From: Octopus sinensis
Taxonomy: Eukaryota
Reading direction: 5' to 3'
Assembly: GCF_006345805.1 (NCBI RefSeq)
Contig: NC_042998.1
Location: 194,866,001-194,930,000 of the forward strand
Length of the DNA: 64,000 nt
In this document: piece by piece, positions 39,774-62,637 of the stretch
Layout: the number at the start of each line of letters is the position of its first letter
How positions within the stretch are numbered: position 1 is the first letter of the stretch
Made by a program: the position numbers and the translations under genes
The notes under the pieces: model-generated
What the model saw: the letters and a program-made list of their open reading frames with translations, nothing else
Databases searched by the model: none
Told to the model about the DNA's origin: nothing

Positions 39774-40719
39774 ATGTTTGTATATAGATATATGAATGCA
39801 TGCGTGCATGTATGTACACATCCTGTATGTATCTATATACTTATCTCATCTAAATTATTAAAAAAACAAGACGTTAAAAAAATAAAATGTCTAATATACA
39901 GAGAAATCTTAAAGCTTAGAGCCTTTCACTTGCACAATGGATGGCACAATATAAATATAGTGTGTCATAGTAAATGTATGCACACCGTTTGAAGACAAAG
40001 GCATAATGCTGTAGAAATGTCTGAGATAAAATTCTTTTCATAGATATTAATTTGAAAAAAACGTTAAGTTGAAAAAAATACGAATAGCAACGACAGTACC
40101 GACAATACTATTCCATCTTTTATAAACGTTGTGGCTCAAAACAAGCAATTGATTTTCATCATCCCCCAAAACAGGTGAAGAAATAGTCGACGTATGTGAC
40201 AAAGACAAGTACTTCCTTACTTGACGAATTCATCTAGAAAAGAGCGAGGAATTGAGGAGGGATATTCCCATTTTTCAAAAGATAGAGGAATCTTCTATGT
40301 GTCTTCAACAGAGGAGTTAGAAGGAGTCCTGGTCGATGCGAAGCAGGATGCGTGCTCCATCAATCGGGACAAGACATTTAGAAATATATCTGGGTTTTTA
40401 AAAATCGAGAACCAGGCGATGAGATAGGTAGAGTTAATGTGCCATACAGCTACCCACGGACTGGTTCCTTAGTACATGGTTCTCAGCAAGCAATATTGGA
40501 TCAGACGTTGACACTTGGCTTATCTCAAACAGAGGTGTCTTCACATATGCCTTAAGCTTTACCGAGTACTCTTATAGTCATAGAGGATCATCAAATATCC
40601 CTACAGACACCAATTGATCACATATTGTTGGGGTTCGCCACATGCCAGTACAGTTGTGTGAATAATAATAATCCTCATTGACACCGTGAAAGATCAGGTA
40701 GTCGATTCCATTTTAAAGG

Positions 40720-40834
40720 ATTGTTGTTGTTGTTGTTGTTGTTGCTGTTGCTGCTGCTGCTGCTGCTGCTGTTGTTGTTGTTGTTGTCGTCGTCGTCGTC
40801 GTCGTCGTTGTTGTCGTTGTTGTCGTTGTTGTCG

Positions 40835-40886
<52 letters not shown>

Positions 40887-40914
40887 GTTGTTGTTGTTGT
40901 TGTTGTTGTTGTTG

Positions 40915-40946
<32 letters not shown>

Positions 40947-40977
40947 TTGTTGTTGTTGTTGTTGCTGTTGTTGCTGC

Positions 40978-41037
<60 letters not shown>

Positions 41038-41075
41038 CGTTGTCGTCGTTGTCGTTGTTGTTGTTGTTGTTGTTG

Positions 41076-41124
<49 letters not shown>

Positions 41125-41130
41125 GAGGAG
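40720..41130. repeat. compound trinucleotide microsatellite (TTG/CTG/TCG)
   Basis: direct reading; mirror copy at ~60620-60780 is much shorter. Confidence 0.97.
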
Positions 41131-41555
41131 GAGTGAGAGAGCAGTGCATGCCATCAAAGTGACACTGGTGTAATATATATACGAAGCCCAGTATACCCAT
41201 CATGACTACCCGTCTGATAAGGGTACACCAGGCACATACATCGCAACCACATGTGCGCGACATGGTGATCTCATATCAAGATAAACAGCACATGACCTTG
41301 CAGGTGGGGGCCCATCCTACTCAAAAGGTCCCTGAATAAGGATTGTTTAAGGATGTTGAACGAACTACCCATGTTTCCAAAGGTGAATTATCCAAACCTC
41401 TAAGAATTCCTTTTAACACACGGCTATGATGCTCCCCCACGACTTCTGTTCGTGATCAGAGATGCACATATCGTCAGTCACTAAGGAACATGGTCAACTG
41501 GTTAAAGTCAAACAATTGATAATTGGTATTGAGCAGAATATTTGCTGTAGCCCTT
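41131..41555 (-). mobile_element. ~480-bp microsatellite-associated retroposon (5'-truncated); second copy on + at 42533-43001
   Basis: shared sequence ...gggtagtcatgatgggtatactgggcttcgtat...cactttgatggca.gcactgct. Confidence 0.75.
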
Positions 41556-41570
41556 TTATTTATTTATTTA

Positions 41571-41597
<27 letters not shown>

Positions 41598-41602
<5 letters not shown>

Positions 41603-41690
41603 TCACTACCTGGAATCGAACTCGGAATCGAACTCGGAATCTTGGGGTTAGTAGCCCGCGCTCTTAACCACTATGCCATATGCCTGTGGG

Positions 41691-41691
<1 letters not shown>
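41598..41691 (-). mobile_element. short tRNA-like SINE in a (TAA)n tract (mirror 60065-60158, +)
   Basis: A-box tggcatagtggtt and tandem-duplicated B-box gagttcgattcc. Confidence 0.72.
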
Positions 41692-41740
<49 letters not shown>

Positions 41741-42100
41741 AGGTGAGCTGGCAGAAAGGTTAGCATGCCGGGTGAAATGCTTAGCGGTTTTTCGTCTGCC
41801 GTTACGTTCTGAGTTCAAATTCTGCCAAGGTCGACTTTGCCTTTCATCCTTTCGGGGTCGATAAATTAAGTACCAGTTACGCACTGGGATCGATAATAAT
41901 CGACTTAATCCGTTTGTCTGTCCCTGTTTGTCCTTTCTGTGTTTAGCCCTTGTGGGTAGTAAAGAAATAGGTATTTCGTTTGTCTTTACGTTCTGAGTTC
42001 AAATTCCGCCGAGGTCGACCTTGCCTTTCATCCTTTCAGGGTCGATGTAACCGACTAGCCCCTTTATTCAAAAAATTTTCAAGGCCTTCATCCTAGAGTG
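41741..42100 (+). mobile_element. SINE family 1, composite/tandem copy
   Basis: family 1 head and core followed by a second partial core. Confidence 0.8.
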
Positions 42101-43001
42101 ATGATGATGATGGTAATAATAATAATAACAATAATAATAATGCCCTGATGCAGTACCAGACAGTGGCTTTCATGGCTTCCCATCTTAACCGATTGGAAGT
42201 GTTATCATGTACATTGTTTTGTTGTTGGGGACTACAAAACATTTGATGACTTGCTGTAACGTATTCCTCACTACTACTACTACTACTACTAATCTTTTTC
42301 TACTATAGGCACAAGGCCTGAAATTTTGGGAAGGAGGACTAGTCGATTACATCGACCTCAGGGTTTCACTGATCCTTATTTTATTGACTCCGAAAGGATG
42401 AAAGGCAAAGTCGACCTTGGCAGAATTTGAACTCAGAACTCAGAATGTAGCGACTACAGAACGTTTGATAACTTGCTGTAACATTTCTCAGTAATAATAA
42501 TAATAATAATAATAATATTAATAATAATAAATACCCTGGTGCAGTACCAGGTGGCTTCTGATCTTAACTGATTGGAAGTGTTATCATGTACATTCTTTTG
42601 TCTTGGTATAAAAGATGGACTACAGCAAATATTCTGCTCAATACCACAGATTTGCTCGTCAGTTGTTTGACCTTAACCAGTTGAGCATGTCCCTTAGTGG
42701 CTGACGATATGTGCATCTCTGATCACGAGCAGAAGTAGTGGGGGAGCATCATAGCCATGTGTTGAAGCAACCCTTATTCAGGGACCTTTTGAGCAGGATG
42801 GGTTACTCGACCAGAAGAAAATTCTAACTGGGCCTCACCTGCAAGGTCATGCGCTGTTTATCTTGATATGAGATCCCCCATGTTGCGCACATATGGTTGT
42901 GATGCATATGCCTGGTGTACCCTTATCAGACGGGTAGTCATGATGGGTATACTGGGCTTCGTATACTTGTTGCCCAGTGTCACTTTGATGGCACGCACTG
43001 C

Positions 43002-43530
43002 TAGACCGACAAGACTATAAAAGCTAATAAACCGGATATTATTATAAAAGATCAGACAAAAAAGATGTGTTTATTAACTGACATGAGTATCCCTTGCGAT
43101 CACAATATAGTGGCGAAAGAATTTGACAAGATTAGTAAATATAAAGACCTGCTAATAGAAATTGATAAAATGTGGCATCTCAAGGCGACTACAGTACCAG
43201 TGATTGTAGGATCTCTAGGAATGATAAAAAAAGGTACTGAAACCTATTTGAAAATGATTCCAGGCTTACCATCCCTACAGGAAGTGCAAAAATCATATTA
43301 ACTGGAATGGCTCATGTACTGAGAAGAGCATTATCGCTGTGAAAACAACATCCATCCATGAATTTATTTATTTATTAATTTTTAAATACATATTTTATCT
43401 GTGAATTTGCGTGTGTAATCTGGGAATGCATACAATGAGCTTCTCTGCCCTAGGTGTATGGAAAACACCCGGCGAGAAATGGAAGAAAATTTGAAGAAGG
43501 AAGGAAAAAACATAATAATAATAATAATAA
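43002..43530 (+). mobile_element. R4/Dong-like non-LTR retrotransposon 3' fragment (restriction-like endonuclease), (TAA)n tail; mirror 58212-58740 (-)
   Basis: NKPDIIIKD...TDMSIPCD.N...KE.DK..KY.DL..EI..MW...VPVIVGSLG; frameshift near 43290. Confidence 0.88.
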
Positions 43531-44242
43531 TAGCAATAATAATTAGCAATAGTAATAGTAGTAATTGTTGGTGTAGTGTAGTAATAGTGGTAGCTGTAAT
43601 TGTTACTGTAGTAGAAATAGTAATTGTAGTCACGTAGTATTGATGATAAGTGTTATGGGTGGCAATATTACCATTTGTAGCGGAGGTAGTAATAATAATA
43701 ATATACTACTACTACCTCACACACACACACACCACCACCACCACCACCACCACCACCACCACCACCACCACTAATACTACTACTACTACTACTACTACTT
43801 GGTGGTGTCAATAACTGTGGTTGTAGGAGTGTCATTCTAATGCCACCCATGCAGTGAAGCCGAGCTCTCAGCCACATCTCACTCATCTGATTCCTCCTCT
43901 GTTCTAAGAATAGCTTTCATGGCTAAAAGAATGCAATGTTGTCGACATTGTTGACTACGAAGTAAACAAACGTACACACACGTGCACACACACACACACA
44001 CAACACATGAGTGATAGACACATTCTCTTATGAATGTGCGTATATATTGTGTGCGCGTGCTTGTGTGTGTGTGTATGTCTGTTAAACAAAACAATGAGTT
44101 AATAAATCGGAGTGACAAGTCACATGTATATGAACAATATAGACAAATACAGGTATGTCAAATACCATACAACATAAATTCTTGATTCACTGGAATTATC
44201 TCCGTCTCCAGAAAATGTGTTACACCTGCCAAATGGTAATTG

Positions 44243-44466
44243 AGGCGGCGAGCTGGCAGAATTGTTAGCACGCCGGGCGAAATACGTAGCCGTATTTCGT
44301 CTGCCGTTACGTTCTGAGTTCAAATTCCGCCGAGGTCGACTTTGCCTTTCATCCTTTCGGGGTCGATAAATTAAGTACCAGTTACGCACTGGGGTCGATG
44401 AAATCCGTTTGTCTGTCCTTGTTTGTCCTCTCTGTGTTTAGCCCCTTGTGGGTAGTAAAGAAATAG
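44243..44466 (+). mobile_element. SINE family 1 (mirror ~57297-57520, -)
   Basis: TSD ggtaattga. Confidence 0.9.
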
Positions 44467-44570
44467 GTAATTGACAATAGTGCCATAAGAAAAGGGAAGG
44501 TAACCTCAATTATTCACCAAAGGTGACATGCCATTAAAGGAAATGGCAGACTTTTTGTCTGACGATAAAA

Positions 44571-44628
44571 GGACAAACGTAGACACTTGTTTCTACCTGA
44601 ACAGGCATCATCAGTACGGCAATTGTCC
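44571..44628 (-). ncRNA. minimal type I hammerhead ribozyme (family B, left-arm copy)
   Basis: exact reverse complement of 57135-57192. Confidence 0.78.
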
Positions 44629-45371
44629 CAACCTGTCTCATGTAGTCAAGGAACGTAGAAATATACAAAAGAAGTAGAATATATTTATGATCTAGGTGAT
44701 TGGCACAAGTTAAGCAAAAATGAGAAATAATAAGAGAAATAAGAGAAATAAGAATGGTGAATGATGAGTGGTATGTAAATGAACAACATGGACAAATACA
44801 TGTATATCAAATACGATATAACAAATTCTTAATTTAGTAAAATTTTCTCCACCGCTAGTGTATGTGTCACGGGTACCAAAAGACAATTAAGAACAGCTCC
44901 ATATGAGAAGGGGAGATAACACCAAGAATAAAGAATTCTCCAAAGTCCATGCAACATTTAGGAAAAAGACATTCTTATTGCTTTGAGGAAAGAGGACAAA
45001 CGTGGACATGATATGTAGCCACACACATATTTTCAATTACGCATATAAACACATATACATACACACACGCATACATAACATATACACGCACATATATGTT
45101 TTACTGTACAGCAGAATTACTCTACAGGTTTTAGCCGATAATGCATATGTAAATTAAAGCTGTCAGTCTTACGATATCACCATGGATAGAAAAAGAGGGG
45201 TCACCAGAACCCCTTTCAGTCTTTATTGTTACTGATTGTCCTTGACGATATTGTAAATAATGAAATTCGACAAAAAGGCAATTAAGTGCTGGCTGAAACC
45301 TGTGAGTTACTCTATTGAACCTCAACTCTGTTGGCCTCAATATTGAAAACTGCTAACACATAAGATGTTGC

Positions 45372-45700
45372 CGTGTTGTTAAGAAGCTTTCTTCCCAACC
45401 ATGTGGTCCTGGGTTTAGTCCCACTGCAGGGCACATTGGATCATCTTCTACTATAGTCGTGCCGAGCAAAGCATTCTGAGTGGATTCGGTATGTATGTAT
45501 ACGTGCTTGTGTTTGAGTTGTATTTGGCCCCACATCATTGCATGACAACCGGTGTTGATTAGTTTTGTGTCCTCGTACATAAGCGGTTCGGCAAAAGAAA
45601 CCAATAGAAGAGTCAGTATCATACTTGAAAAAATGTCCTAGGGTCAGTTTATTCAAGTAAACTCTTCAATGCAGTGTCATAGCATGGATACAGTCCAAAG
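45372..45700 (+). mobile_element. diverged SINE family 3 (mirror ~56040-56392)
   Basis: tRNA-like head and gcggttcggcaaaaga module. Confidence 0.7.
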
Positions 45701-45779
45701 CAAATGGAAGATACTACACCTGTCTCTCTAGTTAACTACTTATTCCATTTAAACAGAATAAAAGGAGACACGTGGGATA

Positions 45780-46798
45780 GAGAATCATTGAAGAGGTCAC
45801 AGGATGTGTGGCGAAAGAATTTTGATAAAGAAACTAAAATAATAATAAAAATAAAGTAGAAATGAAAACCAAGTATATAGTGCATGTGTTTAATTAGCAA
45901 AATATGACCATCCCCGAATACAACAAGAAAGCTCCACCGAGTACGGCATAAAGGGATGGATTCTAGAGAAATATAAAGCATACTTCAATAGTAGCAGGAA
46001 GTGAAGATTATGTCTGGCTAACAAAAGAGCGATATTAAAGAGTTCTCAGGTCCCAGGCGTCTACCTGAACAGCAGAAGGGGAAAATTATAATCCATGCCT
46101 ACATGGAAGGAAGTACCTCATCATGACAATAATTCCCAATTCCCTAGATTCAGCCCTCTCTCCACTAATACCTGAGAATCCGGCAAAATGTTTGACCAGA
46201 ACATGCACCAACGCACTCACAAACACACATGCCTTAACACGGCAGACATCCACCCTATTCCAGACCCTTTTCCACACCCTGCCAATACAAGCTCCTACAT
46301 ATGTTGTACCTCTACACACATTCCATTCATACATAAATGCCCCAAAGAATTCAACCAAAAGTTTCAACCAAAACATTAAAGGAAAAACAACACACTAACG
46401 AAGACAGGTGTGTATGCAGCCTCTGGGCACCACCCCTCCCTGAAAACGCTACACACATTCCACTTCTACAAGAACACCAATCCTAAAACATGCATACACT
46501 TCCCATACACTCTTTTTCAGAAAGCTCTTGTCCCCTCACAACACCCCCAGAAATGATGTTTTGGTTCCAAGTCTCATAAGTCTTAACTTAACACTTTGTT
46601 CGGTTCGCTTCATCGTCTTTTCACAGCAACTGCAAACCAGATGTGTCTGTTCATCTCCGACAATAAAGAGCAGTCCCCATAGTTCATTCCATAACTGCCA
46701 TCTCTGAAGAGCGCAGGCTTACATAATAGAGCTATTACCTATCAGTGCGAAACTGATTTGTAAGATCGGCCGTAATGGATATATAATGCTGTACACTC

Positions 46799-46800
<2 letters not shown>
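45780..46800 (+). mobile_element. Penelope-like element 3' portion (decayed GIY-YIG C-terminus, 3' UTR, hammerhead); mirror ~54935-55960 (-)
   Basis: WILEKYKAYFNSSRK*RLCL..KRAILK....YLNSR...PCLHGRKY resembles the PLE endonuclease tail; ends at a (TA)n tract. Confidence 0.72.
46688..46779 (+). ncRNA. type I hammerhead ribozyme (family A)
   Basis: CTGAAGA 46704-46710; stem II gcgc/gtgc; GAAA 46749-46752; 2-bp stem III; GUA cleavage triplet (after 46762); long imperfect stem I tccataactgccatct / agatcggccgtaatgga. Confidence 0.78.
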
Positions 46801-46878
<78 letters not shown>

Positions 46879-46901
46879 TATATATACATATATATATATA
46901 C

Positions 46902-46955
<54 letters not shown>

Positions 46956-46960
46956 ACACA
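46801..46960. repeat. (TA)n microsatellite
   Basis: direct reading; mirror at ~54780-54934. Confidence 0.95.
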
Positions 46961-47289
46961 CACGCACACACATACACAACAACAACAACACACACACAGA
47001 GGTAATCATTCCGTAAGTCAGGGATGACATTGAAATAAAAATGCGAGAAGCCTTTGAAGACAGAAGACAGTGATAAGGATGAATAACACGACAGTAATGA
47101 ATTGAGCTCAAAACAGAGAATACGATTGGTTAAAATTCGAAGAATTAAACTACGTAAAAGTTACAAAATACATTTTTCTCAAAAAAACTAATTGAAATTA
47201 ATGTTTTCTTTTGACACATTCTACCAGTATACGAAGTTTCAAATTATTTAATTAAGTAGAAAATTCTGTCCATCTTTTAGAAAAGATCC

Positions 47290-47324
<35 letters not shown>

Positions 47325-48194
47325 TAACAATAACGATGATGATGATGATGATAATAATAATATTAATAATAATAATAATAATAATAATTATAATAACAAT
47401 AATAATAATAAACTTTAAAAAATTCCCAGTATTTTCTTTAAGAATAATGGTGAACATTTATAAAATATTTTTATCGACTCAATGTTTCAATGGGTTTGAT
47501 CTCCGATTGTCAGCACTCCCCTTCCTGGATATGCGTAGCAGAAGTGTAATTGTCAGAAATGTTTTCAGTTTGACACATCTAGACTTGAATACCCCAATAT
47601 CGGCCCCACAAGGCTTTTTCATTCCAGCTGTCACATGACCTCGTCAGTAGACGAACCGGTTGTTTCTATTGGTCAGTTTTCAGCCGTCTAATCGTGTTGG
47701 CGCAGCAGTTTATTTTTCCTTACGCGGGAAATATTTCACCAGCTTCTGGGAGCCATCTATTCCCCATAAGTACGGCGTTTCTCGACTGTTCTAGGTCTTT
47801 GGCACGCGTCACTGACCACACACGCAACTCGTCTCCAGCAACGATGTTCTGATACCAGCCAGACTCCGCTTTCATCTCCATCAGACGCCTGTCTTCATCA
47901 TTGCTGTATGAAGACCACACAGACCAACAGCTACCTCTACACACCACCAACAGTAGGTCAACCATGTCTACAGCATCAACAGTCCAGTCTAACCATGAAA
48001 TTCTCTCATACATGTTTGTAATAACCTGTAATGTTATGTTAATTCATTAAGGCAATCATAAATCGTCGCTTACCAGTTCATTTCATCTCAAGTTATATAT
48101 ATCCACTAGCGCTATGACCCGGCAACGCCGGGTCATAGTGCTAGAGCATGCATATACGGCTGCGTGCGTGCGCACATACACGCGAGAACTGTCC

Positions 48195-49670
48195 AAATTT
48201 TGGGTAAAATTTTCGGGAAATTTTGGGGGAAAATTTTCGGTGAATATTTTCGGCAATTTTTTAGGGAAAATTTTCATTGGGTAAAATTTTCGGTGAAAAT
48301 TTTCGAAAAATTTTGGGTGAAAATTTTCGAAAAATTTTTGGGTAAAATTTTCGGGAAATTTTGGGGGAAAATTTTCGATGAATATTTTCGGGAAATTTTT
48401 GGGGGAAAATTTTCGGGAATTTTGGGGGAAAATTTTCGGTGAAAATTTTCTAAAAAATTTTGGGGAAAATTTTCAGTGAAAATTTTCAGAAAATTTTTGC
48501 TGAAAATTTTCGGTGAAAGTTTTCGAAAAATTTTTGGAGAAAATTTTCTAAAAATTTTTGGTGAAAATATTCGAAATATTTCTGGGTAAAATTTTCGAAA
48601 AATTTTTGGGTAAAATTTTCGGGAAATTTTTGGGGAAAATTTTCGGTGAATACTTTCGGGAATTTTTAGGGAAAATTTTCATTGGGTAAAATTTTTGGTG
48701 AAAATTTCCGAAAAATTTTCGAAAAATTTTTGGCTAAAATTTTCGGGAAATTTTGGGGGAAAATTTTCGATGAATATTTTCGGGAATTTTTTAGGGAAAA
48801 TTTTCATTGGGTAAAATTTTCGGTGAAAATTTTCTAAAAAATTTTTGGGGAAAATTTTCAGTGAAAATTTTTGAAAAATTTTTGGGGAAAATTTTCGGGA
48901 AATTTTTGGGTAAAATTTTCGAAAAATTTTGTAGGAAAATTTTCGAAAAATTTTTGGGTAAAATTTTCAGTAAATTTTTGGGTAAAATTTTCGAAAAATT
49001 TTTGGGTAAAATTTTCGGTGAAAATTTTCAGAAAATTTTTGGGGAAAATTTTCAGTGAAAATTTTTGAAAAATTTTTGGGGAAAATTTTCGGGAAATTTT
49101 TGGGTAAAATTTTCGAAAAATTTTGTAGGAAAATTTTCGAAAAATTTTTGGGTAAAATTTTCAGTAAATTTTTGGGTAAAATTTTCGAAAAATTTTTGGG
49201 TAAAATTTTCGGTGAAAATTTTCAGAAAATTTTTGGGGAAAATTTTCGGGAAATTTTCGGGTAAAATTTTTGGGTAAAATTTTCGGTGAAAATTTTCGAA
49301 GAATTTTTGGGGAAAATTTTCAGAAAATTTTCGGCGAAAATTTTTGAAAAATTTTTGGTGAAAATTTTCGGTCAAAATTTTCGAAAAATTTGGGGGAAAA
49401 TTTTCGGTCAAAATTTTCGAAAAATTTTTGGGGAAAATTTTCAGTGAAAATTTTGGAAAAATTTTTGGGGAAAATTTTCGAAAAATTTTGGGGGAAAATT
49501 TTCAGTGAAAATTTTCGGTGAATATTTTCGGGAAATTTTTGGGGAAAATTTTCAGTGAAAATTTTCGAAAAATTTTTGGGTAAAATTTTCGGTGAAAATT
49601 TTCGAAAAAGTTTTGGAGAAAATTTTCGAAACATATCTGGGTAAATTTTCGGTCGAAATTTTCGAAAAAC
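48195..49670 (+). repeat. A4T4 satellite (12-13 bp units such as gggtaaaattttc, gaaaattttc), including a ~194-bp higher-order duplication
   Basis: direct reading; identical ORF starts at 48871 and 49065. Confidence 0.95.
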
Positions 49671-50519
49671 TTAATACCTATGTCTGTCCTTGTTTGTCCC
49701 CTCTATGTTTAACCCCTTGTGGGTAATAAAGAAATAGGTGTAATGGGGGTGTACTTGTCGAGAGAGGTTAGGAGATGCAAGTATATAGACATAGATAAAG
49801 GGATGACGAATAGCAAATGTCAGATACTGTCACCCTTTAAGTTACCACCAATACAGGCCAGAGGTGACGAAAGTGGCGGGGAGGGCGTTGTGATGATAAT
49901 AAGGTGGTTGTAAAAGATAATGAAGATCTGAAGCTGAAGGGGACCTGATACTACTAGAAGTGAGGAGAGATTTAGGACTCATCTGGTTATAGCGGTGCTA
50001 GAAATAGGTGCCCATAATATTGAATTTAAAGATCTGTAGTGTTGATGAAGGTGGGAACCGAGGGGTAAAATTAAAGATTTAAAAGTGACAAAAAATTCAG
50101 TCGAAAATAAAGATAAATTCATAAATGAAGGACATTTATTTATTATGTTTAAGTATAGTGAAATTATAAAGCCCAGAGACGAAGGTGATATAGTGCTAAT
50201 GGACAATAGAAATGAGATATAGTAATTATATTAGTGAAGAGAACATGAAAGTTAAATTAATTATATATATCTTAGTAATTCGTGTATAACTCCAAACCAC
50301 CAGAAGAATGAACTAGTAGTGTTCTATTAGGTACGAGAGTGTTTTGATATTCTGTTAGTTATAATCTAGGTTAGAGGCGTTAAATGTGAAATGAAGAAGA
50401 GAATGAGAATCTTCAAAGAAAAGATAAAAAGATATGGAGATACCGTGGTTTTACTAATTTAATTAAGTAAGCTCATATAATGTCTAAACTATATGTTATG
50501 AGAATCAAAAATAAAACTT

Positions 50520-52030
50520 GAATGACTTAAACATTTGTGGACACACGTAGGGAAGGCTTCATACTGCTTGTTTAATAATTGTTCAAGGTTATGTGGCAAG
50601 ATTTGTGAGGATTCCCTCAAACAAGCAACAGGGGTATGCTGGCCTTGATATGGAGGACCTGAATCAATATGTTGTGTGGTATATTCTTTTTCCTAAGTTA
50701 GTGTATCTTCTCTGCGAGAGAAGTATACTGTTTATCACATCTAAAAGAGTTTAAATCTGCAGAGTATCTTCGCTTAGAATTAACAATAGCACCTATATAA
50801 CTCTTGATACAGTTTTGAAGTTTGTTAAGGACCGTACACTTGTAGACCACATTAAACCTCCTGCAGTGAGCTTGCAGTGGGCATTTATTCCCAACTTTTA
50901 AGTTGCAATGGGATCTATTTGGTTTATGCGTTTTTTCCGCTATGTGAATTGGAGAATGCAAGATTAGAAGGTGCACCATGGTTTAAGGCGGTTCCTTCTA
51001 ATCCGCTCTCAGTGTATTAGTTGTTTTCGATGTCACTTGTATTGTTATCGTAGGGATTGGTGACTGAAAGCATAGATATTTCTGACTCTTGGGAAAGACT
51101 AAGAGCTGCATTATTCTCTTGGTTTGTAGCAGAAACACTACTATTGTAATTGGTACTAATATTGTTGTTGTTGTTGTTGCTGTTGTTATTTTTGTTGTTA
51201 ATGCTAATACTGTTTGTGTTATCCCTAGTGTTATTATTACTGATACTATCGCCATAATTTCGACAGTTATTAGCGTTAGTAATAGCACCACTGTCAATAG
51301 GATTCTCGTTAACGTTAGTATTGTAATTGTTATTATCGTTTCTATTATTAGGATTAACAATAATATCATAATTATGGCTATTGTTGTAATTATTATCATC
51401 ATTATTGGCCATTGAGCTAAGGAGAAAGGGTTATTGCTATCATCATTTAAATTTTGTTTGTCATGATCAGCTTACTTCGATAACATAGAGGCGCAATGGC
51501 CCAGTGGTTAGGGCAGCGGACTCGCGGTCATAGGATCGCGGTTTCGATTCCCAGACCGGACGTTGTGAGTGTTTATTGAGCGAAAACACCTAAAGCTCCA
51601 CGAGGCTCCGGCAGGTGATCCCTGCTGCACTCTTTCACCACAACTTTCTCTCACTCTTACTTCCTGTTTCTGTTGTACCTGTATTTCAAAGGGCCGGCCT
51701 TGTCACTCGCTGTGTCACGCTGAATATCCCCGAGAACTACGTTAAGGGTACACGTGTCTGTGGAGTACTCAGCCACTTACACGTTAATTTCACGAGCAGG
51801 CTGTTCCGTTGATCGGATCAACCGGAACCCTCGTCGTCGTAACCGACGGAGTGCTTCCATCCCACTTCGATAACTTAGATGACAGAAGTGGTTCCCGGCG
51901 AATATATAATGAAAGAATAAAATAATCGGTTCGATCCGCGCTCTAAGTAGCCGAAGCCCTGGGGTTTAACTACTGCGGCTAATTTCCCAGCGAACTAGTT
52001 ATATAATTTATTAAACATGTGGTATATGAT
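50520..52030 (-). mobile_element. decayed Penelope-like element (GIY-YIG endonuclease with an Asn-rich upstream segment), interrupted by a SINE
   Basis: KCPLQAHCRRFNVVYKCTV...KSYIG...KRRYS..LNSF (50698-50979). Confidence 0.8.
51490..51863 (+). mobile_element. tRNA(Arg)-like SINE, family 2
   Basis: TSD acttcgataac(a/t)taga. Confidence 0.9.
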
Positions 52031-52146
52031 TCTGTATATATATATATTTATTCATAACCCATGATGTTTTGGTATTGCAGTTGATTGCAGTTGTAAAAAT
52101 ATGTGAGCTATGTGCGTGTGTGTGCGTGTGTGTGCGCGCGTGTGTG

Positions 52147-52206
<60 letters not shown>

Positions 52207-52736
52207 CGCTCGTATGCTTATTGTTTAGCATGAAGGAGAAAATATAAACATTGAGGGGGTTACACAGAAGTTACAAACAGTTTAGTTCTGAAATGGGGTG
52301 GGATTACGGAAAGTATTTAGTACGAGACATTGTTATGACGAGAAGAGAGGGGGTAGGTGCAAAGTGTAAGTCAAAAGTGGGGGGGGGGGTTATAGTGTTT
52401 ATGTAGTTGTACCGTACGGTGCTGTCAAAGGATGCTGAATTGCCGATGTTCCCTACATGATATTCTTGAGGTCACGGCTATTTTGAGGGTGTGTGTATGT
52501 TTATCGAGTGGGATGTGTTTAATAAGCGTGTGGGCGAGTCCTGTGTGCAGATCTTAAGGAAGGCGTGAAAGATGTCATCTTCATTGCAACGTGTTTGAAG
52601 CTGTACGTAAACAAAAGAATGTGAAAGAAATGAAGAGACTCGAGTTGAAAGTGACGGTTGGAAAGACTAGTGTCAACACATGCTGACCGAAAGTTTGTAA
52701 TTAGAGATAAGTTAGCTTTGTATCAGGACAAAATTG

Positions 52737-53150
52737 GGATCTTTTCGGTTTGAACGGCAGTTTTTAACATGATTTCTAGGTAACTAAAAAATTTTAAACT
52801 TCCCATACTGGTAGAATGTGTTTATAAAGCAATCTTTTTCTCTTGGCTTTATTGAGAAAATTCTATGGTTTGTAAGATATTTGTTGTTGTTTTTTTCTTC
52901 AATTTCTGCAATTTCAACCAATCACTGACGTCTATTGAGGTGAAAACATTCTGTGCCATGTGAATATGTCCCTCGTTTAAGAAACAGATTGGGTTTATTT
53001 ACATTTGTGAAGAAAAAAAATATACCCTTCCCCCACCCCTAACCCTAAAAGAGATTGAAATGCAATAGATCGATTCTAGGGTCATAATTATGGGTGACAA
53101 TTTCATATGACACCGCTAGAAAAAAACTGCCGTTCAAATCGAAAAGATCC
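52737..53150. mobile_element. MITE with GG...CC ends and 8-bp TSD (Merlin-like)
   Basis: TIR ggatcttttcggtttgaacggcagttttt / aaaaactgccgttcaaatcgaaaagatcc; TSD caaaattg at 52729-52736 and 53151-53158. Confidence 0.85.
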
Positions 53151-53282
53151 CAAAATTGCCAGGTGATTATTTAAACAAATAATACCCTCAGTTTAGGAAT
53201 AAATATTCCGAGTTCGAATTTCATCTTTTACTGTATACATATGTAACGAAGATGAGGTGAGTGAGAAAGATGTATGTGGAAA

Positions 53283-53637
53283 TCTCTAAACGGCAAAATG
53301 TCTGTGTGTGTGTCCTTTATACAAATCCACAATTTTTCAGTTAGAGGGCTCGCACTTTCTATGGTCATTCAAAACCGTACAAGGGTGGTCGTGCACATCT
53401 TTACATTTCCTCAGTCACCCCGCAAAGCCATTAAAAATCAATAGAAGTGACATTTTTGTGAATTTTCTATCCAAAGCCCAATCAAAATGCTCGAAACTTG
53501 ATACATCAATTGAATGCCAGCTAGCTGTATGTGATTGGTCAGAGATTTGGACAGTTCTCGCGTGTATGTGCGCACGCACGCAGCCGTATATGCATGCTCT
53601 AGCACTATGACTCGGCGTTGCCGGGTCATAGCGCTAG
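53283..53637 (+). mobile_element. non-autonomous Helitron spanning the inner edge of the right arm; only its last ~93 bp are present in the left arm (48106-48198)
   Basis: a|TCtctaaacggc ... ctatgactcggcgttgccgggtcatagcgCTAG|t. Confidence 0.85.
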
Positions 53638-54412
53638 TGGATATATATAACTTGAGATGAAATGAACTGGTAAGCGACGATTTATGATTGCCTTAATGAA
53701 TTAACATAACATTACAGGTTATTACAAACATGTATGAGAGAATTTCATGGTTAGACTGGACTGTTGATGCTGTAGACATGGTTGACCTACTGTTGGTGGT
53801 GTGTAGAGGTAGCTGTTGGTCTGTGTGGTCTTCATACAGCAATGATGAAGACAGGCGTCTGATGGAGATGAAAGCGGAGTCTGGCTGGTATCAGAACATC
53901 GTTGCTGGAGACGAGTTGCGTGTGTGGTCAGTGACGCGTGCCAAAGACCTAGAACAGTCGAGAAACGCCGTACTTATGGGGAATAGATGGCTCCCAGAAG
54001 CTGGTGAAATATTTCCCGCGTAAGGAAAAATAAACTGCTGCGCCAACACGATTAGACGGCTGAAAACTGACCAATAGAAACAACCGGTTCGTCTACTGAC
54101 GAGGTCATGTGACAGCTGGAATGAAAAAGCCTTGTGGGGCCGATATTGGGGTATTCAAGTCTAGATGTGTCAAACTGAAAACATTTCTGACAATTACACT
54201 TCTGCTACGCATATCCAGGAAGGGGAGTGCTGACAATCGGAGATCAAACCCATTGAAACATTGAGTCGATAAAAATATTTTATAAATGTTCACCATTATT
54301 CTTAAAGAAAATACTGGGAATTTTTTAAAGTTTATTATTATTATTGTTATTATAATTATTATTATTATTATTATTAATATTATTATTATCATCATCATCA
54401 TCGTTATTGTTA

Positions 54413-54444
<32 letters not shown>

Positions 54445-54807
54445 GGATCTTTTCTAAAAGATGGACAGAATTTTCTACTTAATTAAATAATTTGAAACTT
54501 CGTATACTGGTAGAATGTGTCAAAAGAAAACATTAATTTCAATTAGTTTTTTTGAGAAAAATGTATTTTGTAACTTTTACGTAGTTTAATTCTTCGAATT
54601 TTAACCAATCGTATTCTCTGTTTTGAGCTCAATTCATTACTGCCGTGTTATTCATCCTTATCACTGTCTTCTGTCTTCAAAGGCTTCTCGCATTTTTATT
54701 TCAATGTCATCCCTGACTTACGGAATGATTACCTCTGTGTGTGTGTTGTTGTTGTTGTGTATGTGTGTGCGTGTGTGTATACATATATATATATATATAT
54801 ATATATA

Positions 54808-54857
<50 letters not shown>

Positions 54858-54880
54858 GTGTATATATATATATGTGTGTA

Positions 54881-54934
<54 letters not shown>

Positions 54935-54956
54935 TCGGAGTGTACAGCATTATATA

Positions 54957-55047
54957 TCCATTACGCCGATCTTACAAATCAGTTTCGCACTGATAGGTAA
55001 TAGCTCTATTATGTAAGCCTGCGCTCTTCAGAGATGGCAGTTATGGA
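54957..55047 (-). ncRNA. type I hammerhead ribozyme (family A, right-arm copy)
   Basis: mirror of 46688-46779 with a 1-nt deletion in distal stem I. Confidence 0.76.
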
Positions 55048-57134
55048 ATGAACTATGGGGACTGCTCTTTATTGTCGGAGATGAACAGACACATCTGGTT
55101 TGCAGTTGCTGTGAAAAGACGATGAAGCGAACCGAACAAAGTGTTAAGTTAAGACTTATGAGACTTGGAACCAAAACATCATTTCTGGGGGTGTTTGTGA
55201 GGGGACAAGAGCTTTCTGAAAAAGAGTGTATGGGAAGTGTATGCATGTTTTAGGATTGGTGTTCTTGTAGAAGTGGAATGTGTGTAGCGTTTTCAGGGAG
55301 GGGTGGTGCCCAGAGGCTGCATACACACCTGTCTTCGTTAGTGTGTTGTTTTTTCCTTTAATGTTTTGGTTGAAACTTTTGGTTGAATTCTTTGGGGCAT
55401 TTATGTATGAATGGAATGTGTGTAGAGGTACAACATATGTAGGAGCTTGTATTGGCGGGGTGTGGAAAAGGGTCTGGAATAGGGTGGATGTCTGCCGTGT
55501 TAAGGCATGTGTGTTTGTGAGTGCGTTGGTGCATGTTCTGGTCAAACATTTTGCCGGATTCTCAGGTATTAGTGGAGAGAGGGCTGAATCTAGGGAATTG
55601 GGAATTATTGTCAGGATGAGGTACTTCCTTCCATGTAGGCACGGATTATAATTTTCCCCTTCTGCTGTTCAGGTAGACGCCTGGGACCTGAGAACTCTTT
55701 AATATCGCTCTTTTGTTAGCCAGACATAATCTTCACTTCCTGCTACTATTGAAGTATGCTTTACATTTCTCTAGAATCCATCCCTTTATGCCGTACTCGG
55801 TGGAGCTTTCTTGTTGTATTCGGGGATGGTCATATTTTGCTAATTAAACACACGCACTATATACTTGGTTTTCATTTCTACTTTATTTTTATTATTATTT
55901 TAGTTTCTTTAAAAAATTCTTTCGCCACACATCCTGTGACCTCTTCAATGATTCTCTATCCCACGTGTCTCCTTTTATTCTGTTTAAATGGAATAAGTAG
56001 TTAACTAGAGAGACAGGTGTAGTATCTTCCATTTGCTTTGGACTGTATCCATGCTATGACACTGCATTGAAGAGTTTACTTGAATAAACTGACCCTAGGA
56101 CATTTTTTCAACAGCAACTGCAAACCAGATTTTTTCAAGTATGATACTGACTCTTCTATTGGTTTCTTTTGCCGAACCGCTTATGTACGAGGACACAAAA
56201 CTAATCAACACCGGTTGTCATGCAATGATGTGGGGCCAAATACAACTCAAACACAAGCACGTATAGACACATACCGAATCCACTCAGAATGCTTTGCTCG
56301 GCACGACTATAGTAGAAGATGATCCAATGTGCCCTGCAGTGGGACTAAACCCAGGACCACATGGTTGGGAAGAAAGCTTCTTAACAACACGGCAACATCT
56401 TATGTGTTAGCAGTTTTCAATATTGAGGCCAACAGAGTTGAGGTTCAATAGAGTAACTCACAGGTTTCAGCCAGCACTTAATTGCCTTTTTGTCGAATTT
56501 CATTATTTACAATATCGTCAAGGACAATCAGTAACAATAAAGACTGAAAGGGGTTCTGGTGACCCCTCTTTTTCTATCCATGGTGATATCGTAAGACTGA
56601 CAGCTTTAATTTACATATGCATTATCGGCTAAAACCTGTAGAGTAATTCTGCTGTACAGTAAAACATATATGTGCGTGTATATGTTATGTATGCGTGTGT
56701 GTATGTATATGTGTTTATATGCGTAATTGAAAATATGTGTGTGGCTACATATCATGTCCACGTTTGTCCTCTTTCCTCAAAGCAATAAGAATGTCTTTTT
56801 CCTAAATGTTGCATGGACTTTGGAGAATTCTTTATTCTTGGTGTTATCTCCCCTTCTCATATGGAGCTGTTCTTAATTGTCTTTTGGTACCCGTGACACA
56901 TACACTAGCGGTGGAGAAAATTTTACTAAATTAAGAATTTGTTATATCGTATTTGATATACATGTATTTGTCCATGTTGTTCATTTACATACCACTCATC
57001 ATTCACCATTCTTATTTCTCTTATTTCTCTTATTATTTCTCATTTTTGCTTAACTTGTGCCAATCACCTAGATCATAAATATATTCTACTTCTTTTGTAT
57101 ATTTCTACGTTCCTTGACTACATGAGACAGGTTG

Positions 57135-57192
57135 GGACAATTGCCGTACTGATGATGCCTGTTCAGGTAGAAACAAGTGTCTACGTTTGTCC
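57135..57192 (+). ncRNA. minimal type I hammerhead ribozyme (family B)
   Basis: ggacaa-ttgc-cgta-CTGATGA-tgcct(gttc)aggta-GAAAC-aagt-GTC-tacg-t-ttgtcc; predicted cleavage after C57181. Confidence 0.8.
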
Positions 57193-59605
57193 TTTTATCG
57201 TCAGACAAAAAGTCTGCCATTTCCTTTAATGGCATGTCACCTTTGGTGAATAATTGAGGTTACCTTCCCTTTTCTTATGGCACTATTGTCAATTACCTAT
57301 TTCTTTACTACCCACAAGGGGCTAAACACAGAGAGGACAAACAAGGACAGACAAACGGATTTCATCGACCCCAGTGCGTAACTGGTACTTAATTTATCGA
57401 CCCCGAAAGGATGAAAGGCAAAGTCGACCTCGGCGGAATTTGAACTCAGAACGTAACGGCAGACGAAATACGGCTACGTATTTCGCCCGGCGTGCTAACA
57501 ATTCTGCCAGCTCGCCGCCTCAATTACCATTTGGCAGGTGTAACACATTTTCTGGAGACGGAGATAATTCCAGTGAATCAAGAATTTATGTTGTATGGTA
57601 TTTGACATACCTGTATTTGTCTATATTGTTCATATACATGTGACTTGTCACTCCGATTTATTAACTCATTGTTTTGTTTAACAGACATACACACACACAC
57701 AAGCACGCGCACACAATATATACGCACATTCATAAGAGAATGTGTCTATCACTCATGTGTTGTGTGTGTGTGTGTGTGCACGTGTGTGTACGTTTGTTTA
57801 CTTCGTAGTCAACAATGTCGACAACATTGCATTCTTTTAGCCATGAAAGCTATTCTTAGAACAGAGGAGGAATCAGATGAGTGAGATGTGGCTGAGAGCT
57901 CGGCTTCACTGCATGGGTGGCATTAGAATGACACTCCTACAACCACAGTTATTGACACCACCAAGTAGTAGTAGTAGTAGTAGTAGTATTAGTGGTGGTG
58001 GTGGTGGTGGTGTGTGTGTGTGTGAGGTAGTAGTAGTATATTATTATTATTACTACCTCCGCTACAAATGGTAATATTGCCACCCATAACACTTATCATC
58101 AATACTACGTGACTACAATTACTATTTCTACTACAGTAACAATTACAGCTACCACTATTACTACACTACACCAACAATTACTACTATTACTATTGCTAAT
58201 TATTATTGCTATTATTATTATTATTATTATGTTTTTTCCTTCCTTCTTCAAATTTTCTTCCATTTCTCGCCGGGTGTTTTCCATACACCTAGGGCAGAGA
58301 AGCTCATTGTATGCATTCCCAGATTACACACGCAAATTCACAGATAAAATATGTATTTAAAAATTAATAAATAAATAAATTCATGGATGGATGTTGTTTT
58401 CACAGCGATAATGCTCTTCTCAGTACATGAGCCATTCCAGTTAATATGATTTTTGCACTTCCTGTAGGGATGGTAAGCCTGGAATCATTTTCAAATAGGT
58501 TTCAGTACCTTTTTTTATCATTCCTAGAGATCCTACAATCACTGGTACTGTAGTCGCCTTGAGATGCCACATTTTATCAATTTCTATTAGCAGGTCTTTA
58601 TATTTACTAATCTTGTCAAATTCTTTCGCCACTATATTGTGATCGCAAGGGATACTCATGTCAGTTAATAAACACATCTTTTTTGTCTGATCTTTTATAA
58701 TAATATCCGGTTTATTAGCTTTTATAGTCTTGTCGGTCTAGCAGTGCGTGCCATCAAAGTGACACTGGGCAACAAGTATACGAAGCCCAGTATACCCATC
58801 ATGACTACCCGTCTGATAAGGGTACACCAGGCATATACATCACAACCATATGTGCGCAACATGGGGGATCTCATATCAAGATAAACAGCGCATGACCTTG
58901 CAGGTGAGGCCCAGTTAGAATTTTCTTCTGGTCGAGTAACCGATCCTGCTCAAAAGGTCCCTGAATAAGGGTTGCTTCAACACATGGCTATGATGCTCCC
59001 CCACTACTTCTGCCCGTGATCAGAGATGCACATATCGTCAGCCACTAAGGGACATGCTCAACTGGTTAAGGTCAAACAACTGACGAGCAAATCTGTGGTA
59101 TTGAGCAGAATATTTGCTGTAGTCCATCTTTTATACCAAGACAAAAGAATGTACATGATAACACTTCCAATCAGTTAAGATCAGAAGCCACCGCCTGGTA
59201 CTGCACCAGGGTATTTATTATTATTAATATTATTATTATTATTATTATTATTACTGAGAAATATGTTACAGCAAGTTATCAAACGTTCTGTAGTCGCTAC
59301 GTTCTGAGTTCTGAGTTCAAATTCTGCCATGGTCGACTTTGCCTTTCATCCTTTCGGAGTCAATAAAATAAGGATCAGTGAAACCCTGAGGTCGATGTAA
59401 TCGACTAGTCCTCCTTCCCAAAATTTCAGGCCTTGTGCCTATAGTAGAAAAAGATTAGTAGTAGTAGTAGTAGTAGTGAGAAATACGTTACAGCAAGTCA
59501 TCAAATGTTTTGTAGTCCCCAACAACAAAACAATGTACATGATAACACTTCCAATCGGTTAAGATGGGAAGCCATGAAAGCCACTGTCTGGTACTGCATC
59601 AGGGC

Positions 59606-59638
<33 letters not shown>

Positions 59639-60009
59639 ATCATCATCATCACTCTAGGATGAAGGCCTTGAAAATTTTTTGAAGAAAGGGGCTAGTCGGT
59701 TACATCGACCCTGAAAGGATGAAAGGCAAGGTCGACCTCGGCGGAATTTGAACTCAGAACGTAAAGACAAACGAAATACCTATTTCTTTACTACCCACAA
59801 GGGCTAAACACAGAAAGGACAAACAGGGACAGACAAACGGATTAAGTCGATTATTATCGATCCCAGTGCGTAACTGGTACTTAATTTATCGACCCCGAAA
59901 GGATGAAAGGCAAAGTCGACCTTGGCAGAATTTGAACTCAGAACGTAACGGCAGACGAAATACCGCTAAGCATTTCACCCGGCATGCTAACCTTTCTGCC
60001 AGCTCACCT

Positions 60010-60065
<56 letters not shown>

Positions 60066-60644
60066 CCCACAGGCATATGGCATAGTGGTTAAGAGCGCGG
60101 GCTACTAACCCCAAGATTCCGAGTTTGATTCCGAGTTCGATTCCAGGTAGTGACCTGAATAATAATAATAATAATAATAATATAAATAAATAAATAAAAG
60201 GGCTACAGCAAATATTCTGCTCAATACCAATTATCAATTGTTTGACTTTAACCAGTTGACCATGTTCCTTAGTGACTGACGATATGTGCATCTCTGATCA
60301 CGAACAGAAGTCGTGGGGGAGCATCATAGCCGTGTGTTAAAAGGAATTCTAAGAGGTTTGGATAATTCACCTTTGGAAACATGGGTAGTTCGTTCAACAT
60401 CCTTAAACAATCCTTATTCAGGGACCTTTTGAGTAGGATGGGCCCCCACCTGCAAGGTCATGTGCTGTTGATCTTGATATGAGATCACCATGTCGCGCAC
60501 ATGTGGTTGCAATGCATGTGCCTGGTGTACCCTTATCAGACGGGTAGCCATGATGGGTATACTGGGCTTCGTATATATATTACACCAGTGTCACTTTGAT
60601 TGCATGCACTGCTCTCTCACTCCTCCTCCTCCTCCTCCTCCTCC

Positions 60645-60707
<63 letters not shown>

Positions 60708-60711
60708 GCAG

Positions 60712-60743
<32 letters not shown>

Positions 60744-60748
60744 ACAGC

Positions 60749-60781
<33 letters not shown>

Positions 60782-61526
60782 CCTTTAAAATGGAATCGAC
60801 TACCTGATCTTTCACGGTGTCAATGAGGATTATTATTATTCACACAACTGTACTGGCATGTGGCGAACCCCAACAATATGTGATCAATTGGTGTCTGTAG
60901 GGATATTTGATGATCCTCTATGACTATAAGAGTACTCGGTAAAGCTTAAGGCATATGTGAAGACACCTCTGTTTGAGATAAGCCAAGTGTCAACGTCTGA
61001 TCCAATATTGCTTGCTGAGAACCATGTACTAAGGAACCAGTCCGTGGGTAGCTGTATGGCACATTAACTCTACCTATCTCATCGCCTGGTTCTCGATTTT
61101 TAAAAACCCAGATATATTTCTATATGTCTTGTCCCGATTGATGGAGCACGCATCCTGCTTCGCATCGACCAGGACTCCTTCTAACTCCTCTGTTGAAGAC
61201 ACATAGAAGATTCCTCTATCTTTTGAAAAATGGGAATATCCCTCCTCAATTCCTCGCTCTTTTCTAGATGAATTCGTCAAGTAAGGAAGTACTTGTCTTT
61301 GTCACATACGTCGACTATTTCTTCACCTGTTTTGGGGGATGATGAAAATCAATTGCTTGTTTTGAGCCACAACGTTTATAAAAGATGGAATAGTATTGTC
61401 GGTACTGTCGTTGCTATTCGTATTTTTTTCAACTTAACGTTTTTTTCAAATTAATATCTATGAAAAGAATTTTATCTCAGACATTTCTACAGCATTATGC
61501 CTTTGTCTTCAAACGGTGTGCATACA

Positions 61527-61717
61527 TTTCACCCAAAAATTTTTCGAAAATTTTCACTGAAAATTTTCCCCAAAATTTTCGAAAATTTTTGGGGAAACTT
61601 TCCATAAATATTTTTCGAAAATCTTTCCCGAAAATTTTCCTCCAAAATTTTTTGAAAATTTTCACCGAAAATTTTACCCAAAAATTTTTAGAAAATTTTC
61701 ATGGAAAATTTTACCCA
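61527..61717 (-). repeat. A4T4 satellite, opposite orientation to 48195-49670
   Basis: gaaaattttaccc-type units directly after the right arm. Confidence 0.93.
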
Positions 61718-61719
61718 TA

Positions 61720-62596
61720 ATAGTCACTGACCGAAAAGTCCTCTAGAACAGACTTGTCAGTTCATCTTCGTAAACGCCCAGAGTCACCCCTTGGACGTCG
61801 TCGTACTTTCTCGCCACTGATCCTCTATAAATTTCTAAAGTGGTACATTTACCGATCCTGTTGTCCGACAAGTAGAGGACAGTGAGCGTCTGACGATATT
61901 CTAGGTGCCAGGCGCCCAGTCTTGGACTGTCTTTTATCCAGGACTGCAGCTCCGCCAAAGAGACGGGTTGCGGAAACACATGCCTCACAATCTTAGTCTT
62001 ATTGTTTTTGTTGGAGTTGTTGTGAATGTGTTGCAGTTGTGGTATCAGAATATGCTTTTGTTGAGTTCTTGGAGTAGGACTATGTAGTCTCTTCCTCTTT
62101 CGCCGAGCAACCTTTTGTCACCGCGATCCATTGATCGCCCATCTCTTCTTTCCCCGTGTCATTGTAGTTGATGTTGGTTTGGGAAGTAGATGTCGATGTT
62201 GATGATAATTGTTTAGTTATCATCTGTGGTGGTCGTACTGGGAACGCTGGATACCACCTCTGTGTCGCTGGTCCTGGATTGGTCATCATCTCTAGGTGTG
62301 GCGATTGCACTGGTGGTAACATATGGTGCGGGGCTTGTCACTCTATCGGTGACGATGATAATGGTTTGTTCATCATCTGTGGCGGTGGTATTGGGGTCGT
62401 GAGTAACGTCCTCTGTGACGTTGGTCCCGGACTGATCCTCATCTCTGGCTGTAGCGATTGTACTTGCGTGAGACCTGGTTAATCTGCTAATATTGATGTT
62501 GGACGGTATTGCTGGTAATGCGAATAGCAGGTCTATGTGTCACCGTAGCTTCATAGATGACTCCTTCAGCCTCACATCGGCCTCCTATTGGACATT
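61720..62596 (-). pseudogene. decayed unknown ORF, possibly a retroelement ORF1, with an internal duplication
   Basis: minus-strand ORF pieces 62080-62322 and 61743-61988; coding-like composition; repeat period ~153 bp. Confidence 0.35.

Positions 62597-62597
<1 letters not shown>

Positions 62598-62637
<40 letters not shown>

What the first reader, a model, noticed from the sequence alone, without database searches (positions are those of the whole stretch)
39972..61529. 8-kb inverted duplication with reconstructable breakpoints
Seen: arms 39972-48198 and 53545-61529 around a 5346-bp spacer, with no TSD. A Helitron is intact across the right inner edge (53283-53637) but cut at the left inner edge, so the right inner edge is native. 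The novel joins are 48198 and 61529, both entering the same satellite through short aaat/ttt microhomology. Inference: ancestral A-R-S'-sat'-B became A-R|sat-S-R'|sat'-B by two template switches or a staggered-break inversion. The arms differ by scattered SNPs, indels and microsatellite lengths, so they are not an identical read copy, although a haplotype mis-join remains possible.
Basis: partly seen in the sequence, partly recalled or inferred. Interest (0 to 1): 0.75.

Follow-up and report, generated by a model that had tools for sequence, protein, structure and literature searches.

The report
Duplication-flanked inversion at a flip-prone satellite
In non-coding DNA of an octopus-type genome, an 8-kb stretch is present twice in opposite orientation around a 5-kb spacer, both new joins also occur in short-read data and lead into the same kind of short repeat, and the layout likely arose when a break in that repeat was repaired by copying errors, a known kind of rearrangement.

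Summary
Arms 39972-48198 and 53545-61529 are inverted copies differing at 26 of 7097 non-repeat sites (0.37%) around a 5346-bp spacer. Dispersed repeats are intact across 39972 and 53545 and cut at 48198 and 61529, so those two joins are new; both enter an AAAATTTTCGG-type satellite through AAAT. Exact junction-spanning short-read contigs exist: 48198 in two runs of one study, 61529 in one run of another (possibly the assembly's source). Two runs about 1.5% diverged pass 61529 on single contigs without the join. An artefact is therefore unlikely; the event is probably young and perhaps polymorphic. It is a duplication-flanked inversion (dupINV type), most likely one satellite break repaired by two microhomology template switches; a three-break chromatid exchange cannot be excluded. 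No coding exon was found in it. One addition: this satellite switches strand within 8 of 20 other clusters against 1 of 29 other tandem arrays, but 0 of 20 carry a kb-scale duplication. That both satellite pieces were once one array is untested.

The parts
39960..40044 (.). Old ~85-bp dispersed repeat that crosses the left outer edge (39972); marks that edge as native
   Evidence: most of the 39 matches elsewhere in G000 start 7-13 bp left of 39972, at 73-81% identity
39972..48198 (+). Left arm R (8227 bp): unique DNA, SINEs, microsatellites and other repeat fragments; no Pfam-supported exon
42906..45494 (.). Tract with no substitution between the arms over 2339 compared sites (conversion, haplotype mosaic or polishing)
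   Evidence: P = 0.0006 for a gap this long under random placement of 26 substitutions
48105..48198 (-). Cut 3' end of the Helitron-like element on the left arm
48195..48202 (+). New join J2 (arm end to satellite) through AAAT
   Evidence: exact contigs 48169-48234 in X18 and 48169-48224 in X19
48199..49669 (+). Satellite piece T1 (12/24/37-bp periods, palindromic AAAATTTT cores)
   Evidence: two T1 variant motifs match exactly only here in G000
49670..53544 (.). Rest of the single-copy spacer S; begins with the 3' part of a SINE-like repeat abutting T1
53283..53637 (+). Intact non-autonomous Helitron-like element across the right inner edge (53545); marks that edge as native
53545..61529 (-). 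Right arm R' (7985 bp), inverted copy of R
61526..61533 (-). New join J4 (satellite to arm start) through AAA(T)
   Evidence: exact contig 61500-61555 in X1; not the form carried by the long contigs of X3 and X5
61530..61717 (-). Satellite piece T2, opposite in orientation to T1
   Evidence: its variant motif is found only here in G000
61702..61990 (+). Fragment of an old (~80% identity) dispersed repeat, cut on its left by T2 at a stretch resembling the satellite
   Evidence: 10 of 10 fetched copies continue leftwards in non-satellite sequence

Best explanation
This is a 13.3-kb inverted block with an 8.2-kb duplicated arm whose two new joins both enter an AT-rich satellite through AAAT, and it likely arose from one break in a resident satellite array repaired by two microhomology-mediated template switches. 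Shown: the arms, the two native and two new edges, the junction words in short-read contigs, and lack of the 61529 join on the contigs of two more diverged runs. Inferred: the ancestor read A-R-S'-T1'-T2-B; after a break between T1' and T2 the distal 3' end primed at AAAT at the start of R, copied R-S'-T1' (13.3 kb) until the broken template ended, then re-primed or was joined at AAAT at the end of R. One break explains why both joins fall in the satellite. Predicted: the 99.6%-identical arms would now allow gene conversion and recurrent flipping of the spacer.
For: Edge polarity from two independent repeats. AAAT at both joins, no insertion, no TSD. Junction contigs exact in X18, X19 and X1. 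X3 and X5, 18/1065 and 14/1015 letters different from the window on their listed long pieces, cross 61529 unbranched; arm difference is 0.37%. AAAT occurs 0.072 per base in T1 against 0.010 in the window. The family switches strand inside 8 of 20 other clusters, often at the AAAATTTT core, against 1 of 29 other tandem arrays (Fisher P = 0.002; 0.014 if the two marginal cases are dropped). Three T1/T2 variant motifs have no exact second copy in G000, so no donor array is in sight. The reconstructed T2-T1 join fits the satellite's grammar as a minority form (G follows the T-run in 204 of 1457 units).
Against: T2 is not closer to T1 (local score 222) than to other arrays (up to 251), and their 45-bp exact match is reached by 19 of 188 chunks from other arrays: one ancestral array is not shown. 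The outer satellite ends also abut cut repeats (49670, 61702-61717), so earlier or simultaneous joins exist there. Microhomology of 3-4 bp is cheap in this satellite and also fits end joining. No single run showed both joins in the listed rows (tables were cut: 5156 and 4558 pieces not shown), and no record spans the whole structure. 0 of 20 other satellite loci carry a two-armed inverted duplication of 1 kb or more.
Confidence: 0.55

Rival explanations
1. Same real structure, made by staggered double-strand breaks on paired chromatids or homologues (start of R, end of R, satellite) and end joining, leaving a reciprocal chromatid without R.
For: Gives an identical product (PMC1885836, passages; PMC7584159, passages). 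Short microhomology fits end joining. Patchy arm differences fit arms taken from two homologues.
Against: Needs three breaks within 14 kb rather than one. The single-chromatid version needs 8.2 kb of unwinding; the Drosophila duplications reached about 1.9 kb at most.
Confidence: 0.25
2. The satellite was not resident: T1 and T2 are patches copied in from elsewhere during one four-switch repair event that also deleted the DNA between S' and B.
For: All four satellite ends abut cut repeats with short or imperfect likeness; T2 is no closer to T1 than to other arrays; arrays elsewhere also abut unrelated fragments.
Against: No donor for three variant motifs in G000 (the assembly may lack it). T1 shows local internal duplication (247 bp at 99.2%) and 5 of its 7 chunks match best within T1. 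Four switches instead of two.
Confidence: 0.12
3. Assembly artefact: chimeric long reads or a mis-join of two haplotypes.
For: Arm difference (0.37%) is below the 1.22% heterozygosity reported for one octopus species (bioRxiv 10.1101/2023.05.16.540928, passages). X1 may be the source sample. No spanning long read was seen.
Against: Both join sequences exist exactly in short-read contigs, 48198 in a second study. A mis-join of a normal and a simply inverted haplotype yields only one new join next to both native ones, not two (reasoning).
Confidence: 0.05
4. A foldback-type transposon with satellite arms (48199-61717) that captured host DNA.
For: The block starts and ends with the satellite in opposite orientations.
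Against: No TSD; array ends at other loci share no common terminus or flank; the right end cuts an old repeat at a look-alike stretch; no transposase hit among 133 ORFs scanned.
Confidence: 0.03

Closest known systems
dupINV class of complex structural variants (PMC5338099, passages on CNV-flanked inversions)
   Same: An inversion with a duplication at one flank only; three break positions, two new joins.
   Different: Invertebrate, non-coding, only 13.3 kb inverted with 62% of it duplicated; the undamaged-copy-number end lies in a satellite.
Drosophila inversions with inverted duplications at one breakpoint (Ranz et al. 2007, PMC1885836, passages)
   Same: Inverted duplication of formerly single sequence at the two ends of an inversion; 12 of their cases duplicate only one breakpoint region.
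   Different: Their duplications have median 321 bp, at most about 1.9 kb, about 88% identity; this one is 8.2 kb and 99.6% identical, around a 5.3-kb spacer.
MMBIR/FoSTeS forward switch and backward copying, as proposed for D. subobscura O7 (PMC7584159, passages)
   Same: Short microhomology at joins, a structure-prone sequence at a break, inverted duplication explained by repair rather than staggered cuts.
   Different: Here both joins use a quasi-palindromic satellite; no filler bases; no gene is moved.
Non-autonomous Helitron (marker element 53283-53637)
   Same: 5' TC, 3' hairpin, CTAG end, A|T site; the defining ends are recalled, not from a library call.
   Different: A passenger that dates the edge; nothing suggests it caused the event.

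Membership tests
Duplication-flanked inversion (dupINV) | Two inverted copies of a formerly single segment at the ends of an inverted block | tested here: met
Duplication-flanked inversion (dupINV) | Two new joins, with the other two edges native | tested here: met
   join words in reads
Duplication-flanked inversion (dupINV) | Ancestral haplotype with one copy and the predicted order | tested here: inconclusive
   X3 and X5 lack the 61529 join on their contigs; their letters beyond 61529 and the S-satellite-B order were not shown
Duplication-flanked inversion (dupINV) | Copy-number gain of the arm in read depth | tested here: inconclusive
   Only contig depths were available and the arm interior had no cover in X1 and X19; the tool warns that depth is no copy number
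MMBIR/FoSTeS product | Short microhomology at each join | tested here: met
   AAAT at J2, AAA(T) at J4; weak, as AAAT is 7 times denser in the satellite
MMBIR/FoSTeS product | Templated insertions or clustered new mutations at the joins | tested here: not met
   No inserted bases; 1 substitution in the first 750 bp and 1 in the last 780 bp of the arms
MMBIR/FoSTeS product | Replicative origin rather than break and join | not testable with these tools
   Both routes give the same product
Foldback-type transposon | Target-site duplication and conserved termini across copies | tested here: not met
Non-autonomous Helitron (53283-53637) | 5' TC, subterminal hairpin, 3' CTAG, insertion between A and T | tested here: met
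   12 loci examined: hairpin and TAG|T end in 12 of 12 (CTAG in 11, GTAG in 1); the window copy starts A|TC

The most novel reading that the evidence does not exclude
The AAAATTTT-core satellite is a dispersed, strand-flipping fragile element: its palindromic cores let broken or stalled ends re-prime on either strand, so its arrays (roughly thousands, from 1 of 15 control 40-kb stretches holding one) seed fold-back inversions from tens of bases to over 10 kb, this locus being a large, young and still polymorphic case whose spacer keeps toggling.
Probability: 0.2. Interest if true: 0.55.

Novelty: new member of a known kind. Interest (0 to 1): 0.27.

Why it matters
By itself it is a clean, read-supported example of a known rearrangement class in non-coding DNA about 8 kb past the last coding exon of a spectrin-type gene, with no gene visibly altered. 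Its value is as a marker: base-exact joins, a likely polymorphism that PCR can type, and a natural substrate for measuring gene conversion and spacer flipping between 8-kb inverted arms in a cephalopod. If the satellite proves to be a general source of fold-back rearrangements, it would offer a testable small-scale mechanism for the reshuffling of octopus genomes.

Tried and rejected
Kb-scale inverted duplications as a hallmark of this satellite: 0 of 20 satellite loci (19 of 40 kb, one 19.6-kb contig) and 0 of 15 control stretches had a two-armed inverted match of 1 kb or more at 93% identity or better; the longest were 523 and 529 bp. Kinship of T2 with T1 by shared 45-mer: not significant, 19 of 188. 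Donor arrays: none exact, one 1-mismatch hit for one of three motifs. Rfam on 36000-64000: 36 matches, none at a gathering score, including a stretch near 61880 that I had taken for hammerhead-like from memory. Pfam on 133 ORFs (low-complexity ones dropped, right-arm duplicates left out): nothing credible in 39972-61717. Arm interior and several bins had no cover; this proves nothing, as a filter drops records. Depth ratios (J4 41.7 against 63.1 for B in X1; J2 45.9 against 42.2 for B in X19) hint at one carrier copy in X1 and two in X19, but are not copy numbers. Paper searches for this satellite or locus (listings and abstract starts only) showed none; and 41 gave the comparison papers. No supplements were read.
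Full report
Observation. Self-BLAST of the window gives one long inverted match, and global alignment fixes the arms at 39972-48198 and 53545-61529 with a 5346-bp spacer. The arm start has two full copies in G000, both here. Outside masked tandem repeats the arms differ at 26 of 7097 sites (0.37%) and 8 indels. No other two-armed inverted match of 500 bp or more at 95% lies in 124 kb around the locus, and there is no N gap. The genome is octopus-type; that label rests on recalled repeat motifs and on earlier notes, not on a test of mine.

Which edges are new. A 352-bp high-copy element with Helitron-type ends is intact across 53545 (40 of 40 scored candidates; ends) and cut at 48198. An old 85-bp repeat crosses 39972 by 7-13 bp in most of its matches and is cut at 61529. 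So 39972 and 53545 are native, 48198 (J2) and 61529 (J4) new. Both new joins run through AAAT into a satellite with AAAATTTT cores, T1 (48199-49669) and T2 (61530-61717, opposite strand), with no inserted bases and no TSD.

Is it real. I laid short-read contigs of 6 of the 24 runs listed. On 47420-48290, X18 holds an exact 66-bp contig 48169-48234 and X19 an exact 56-bp contig 48169-48224; both are study P7. On 60790-62190, X1 (study P1, possibly the source sample) holds an exact 56-bp contig 61500-61555. Each has 30 letters on the arm side, one short of the tool's bridging rule, as expected at a branch of a 31-letter graph. The tables are cut, so I cannot say whether X1 and X2 hold J2 or X19 holds J4. 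X3 and X5 (studies P2, P3) cross 61529 on single 1199- and 1292-bp contigs, with 773 and 765 letters beyond that do not follow the window; those letters were not shown and are presumed to be flank A. Contigs drop rare variants, so this is absence from the contigs only. X3 and X5 differ from the window at 18 of 1065 and 14 of 1015 letters on their listed long pieces, while X19 has 0 of 298 in B. The arms are thus about a quarter as far apart as those lineages, which suggests a young event; if the arms came from two homologues it may be younger still. Contig depths hint that X1 carries one copy and X19 two, but are no copy number.

The satellite. One exact 34-mer has 36 hits in G000. I fetched 20 of the 27 other loci with flanks and 15 control stretches 1 Mb away; 1 of 15 controls also held an array. 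Arrays abut varied, unrelated flanks and interleave with other short repeats. Strand switches occur within 8 of 20 clusters, several at the palindromic core; two are marginal (a 50-bp end block; a block repeated with each unit). Among 29 other tandem arrays in the same stretches 1 had an adjacent inverted block (P = 0.002, or 0.014 with 6 of 20). The two sets were chosen and scored differently, so this is a lead. Against a general role, 0 of 20 loci and 0 of 15 controls carry a two-armed inverted duplication of 1 kb or more.

Was there one array. Three variant motifs of T1 and T2 have no exact copy elsewhere in G000, and T1 shows local internal duplication, both fitting a resident array. But T2 is no closer to T1 than to other arrays, and the outer ends of T1 and T2 abut a partial SINE-like repeat and a cut old repeat. 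The single ancestral array remains inferred.

Mechanism. The derived minus strand reads B'-T2-R-S'-T1'-R'-A'. This is what a 3' end left by one break in the satellite would make by priming at the start of R, copying to the end of the broken template and switching to the end of R; it explains both joins falling in the satellite with one break (inference, 0.55). Staggered double-strand breaks on paired chromatids give the same product (PMC1885836 and PMC7584159, passages read; 0.25). A single-chromatid stagger would need 8.2 kb unwound, against at most about 1.9 kb seen in Drosophila. Satellite patches copied in (0.12), artefact (0.05) and foldback transposon (0.03) follow.

After the event. Substitutions between the arms are clumped: 2339 consecutive compared sites without one (P = 0.0006; dispersion P = 0.026). 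Gene conversion between the arms, a mosaic of homologues, or polishing with cross-mapped reads all fit; I could not separate them.

Function. Of 133 ORFs scanned against Pfam, none in 39972-61717 gave a credible hit; spectrin-repeat and EF-hand exons lie on the + strand upstream, with a last exon and stop at 31868-31993 read by eye. The rearrangement starts 8 kb further on. An effect on regulation or a long 3' UTR was not tested.

Comparison and verdict. It is a duplication-flanked inversion as catalogued in humans (PMC5338099, passages) and Drosophila, unusual only in the large duplicated share. Searches for a paper on this satellite or locus showed none in their listings. Real, young, known kind, interest 0.27; the flip-prone satellite is the part worth following.

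Noticed in passing
L059:3095 to window 31993 (+): 3' part of a spectrin-type gene: spectrin-repeat exons, EF-hand exons and a Ca-insensitive EF-hand exon, stop at 31991-31993 read by eye; alpha-spectrin-like by recall.
   Followed up: partly
window 13110-13373 (-): Pif1 2B-domain ORF (E 3e-14) inside the spectrin-type gene, probably a Helitron fragment.
   Followed up: no
window 50701-50982 (-) and 62490-62600 (-): ORF fragments that look like Penelope-type GIY-YIG regions by recall; no Pfam hit. 62193-62590 is a dispersed repeat at 76-86%.
   Followed up: partly
window 48072-48134: A 1949-bp contig in X2 and X19 matches these 63 bases exactly and then leaves the window sequence: another locus or allele sharing the element's 3' end; unexplained.
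   Followed up: no
runs X19, X3, X5: All carry the label organism B, yet X19 is identical to the window in B (0 of 298) while X3 and X5 differ by about 3% there; labels do not track the sequence.
   Followed up: no
L056 (11-14 kb beyond the window end) and several other loci: A 184-bp tandem repeat family of about 97.7% unit identity, also in L105, L121-type loci and controls.
   Followed up: no
L018, L021, L031, L032, L137-L138: The satellite is interleaved with a ~32-bp repeat and other modules in patchworks of 2-10 kb, with inverted modules; contig C886 repeats a ~1.4-1.7-kb higher-order unit.
   Followed up: partly
L019 and L024: Two arrays are followed by nearly the same stretch of what looks like one LINE family (recall), a possible chimeric insertion signature.
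   Followed up: no
G000:C8:46424501 locus, 18616-18946 and 21272-21598: A 330-bp inverted pair at 97% with one copy abutting the array end; a small analogue or two copies of a repeat.
   Followed up: no
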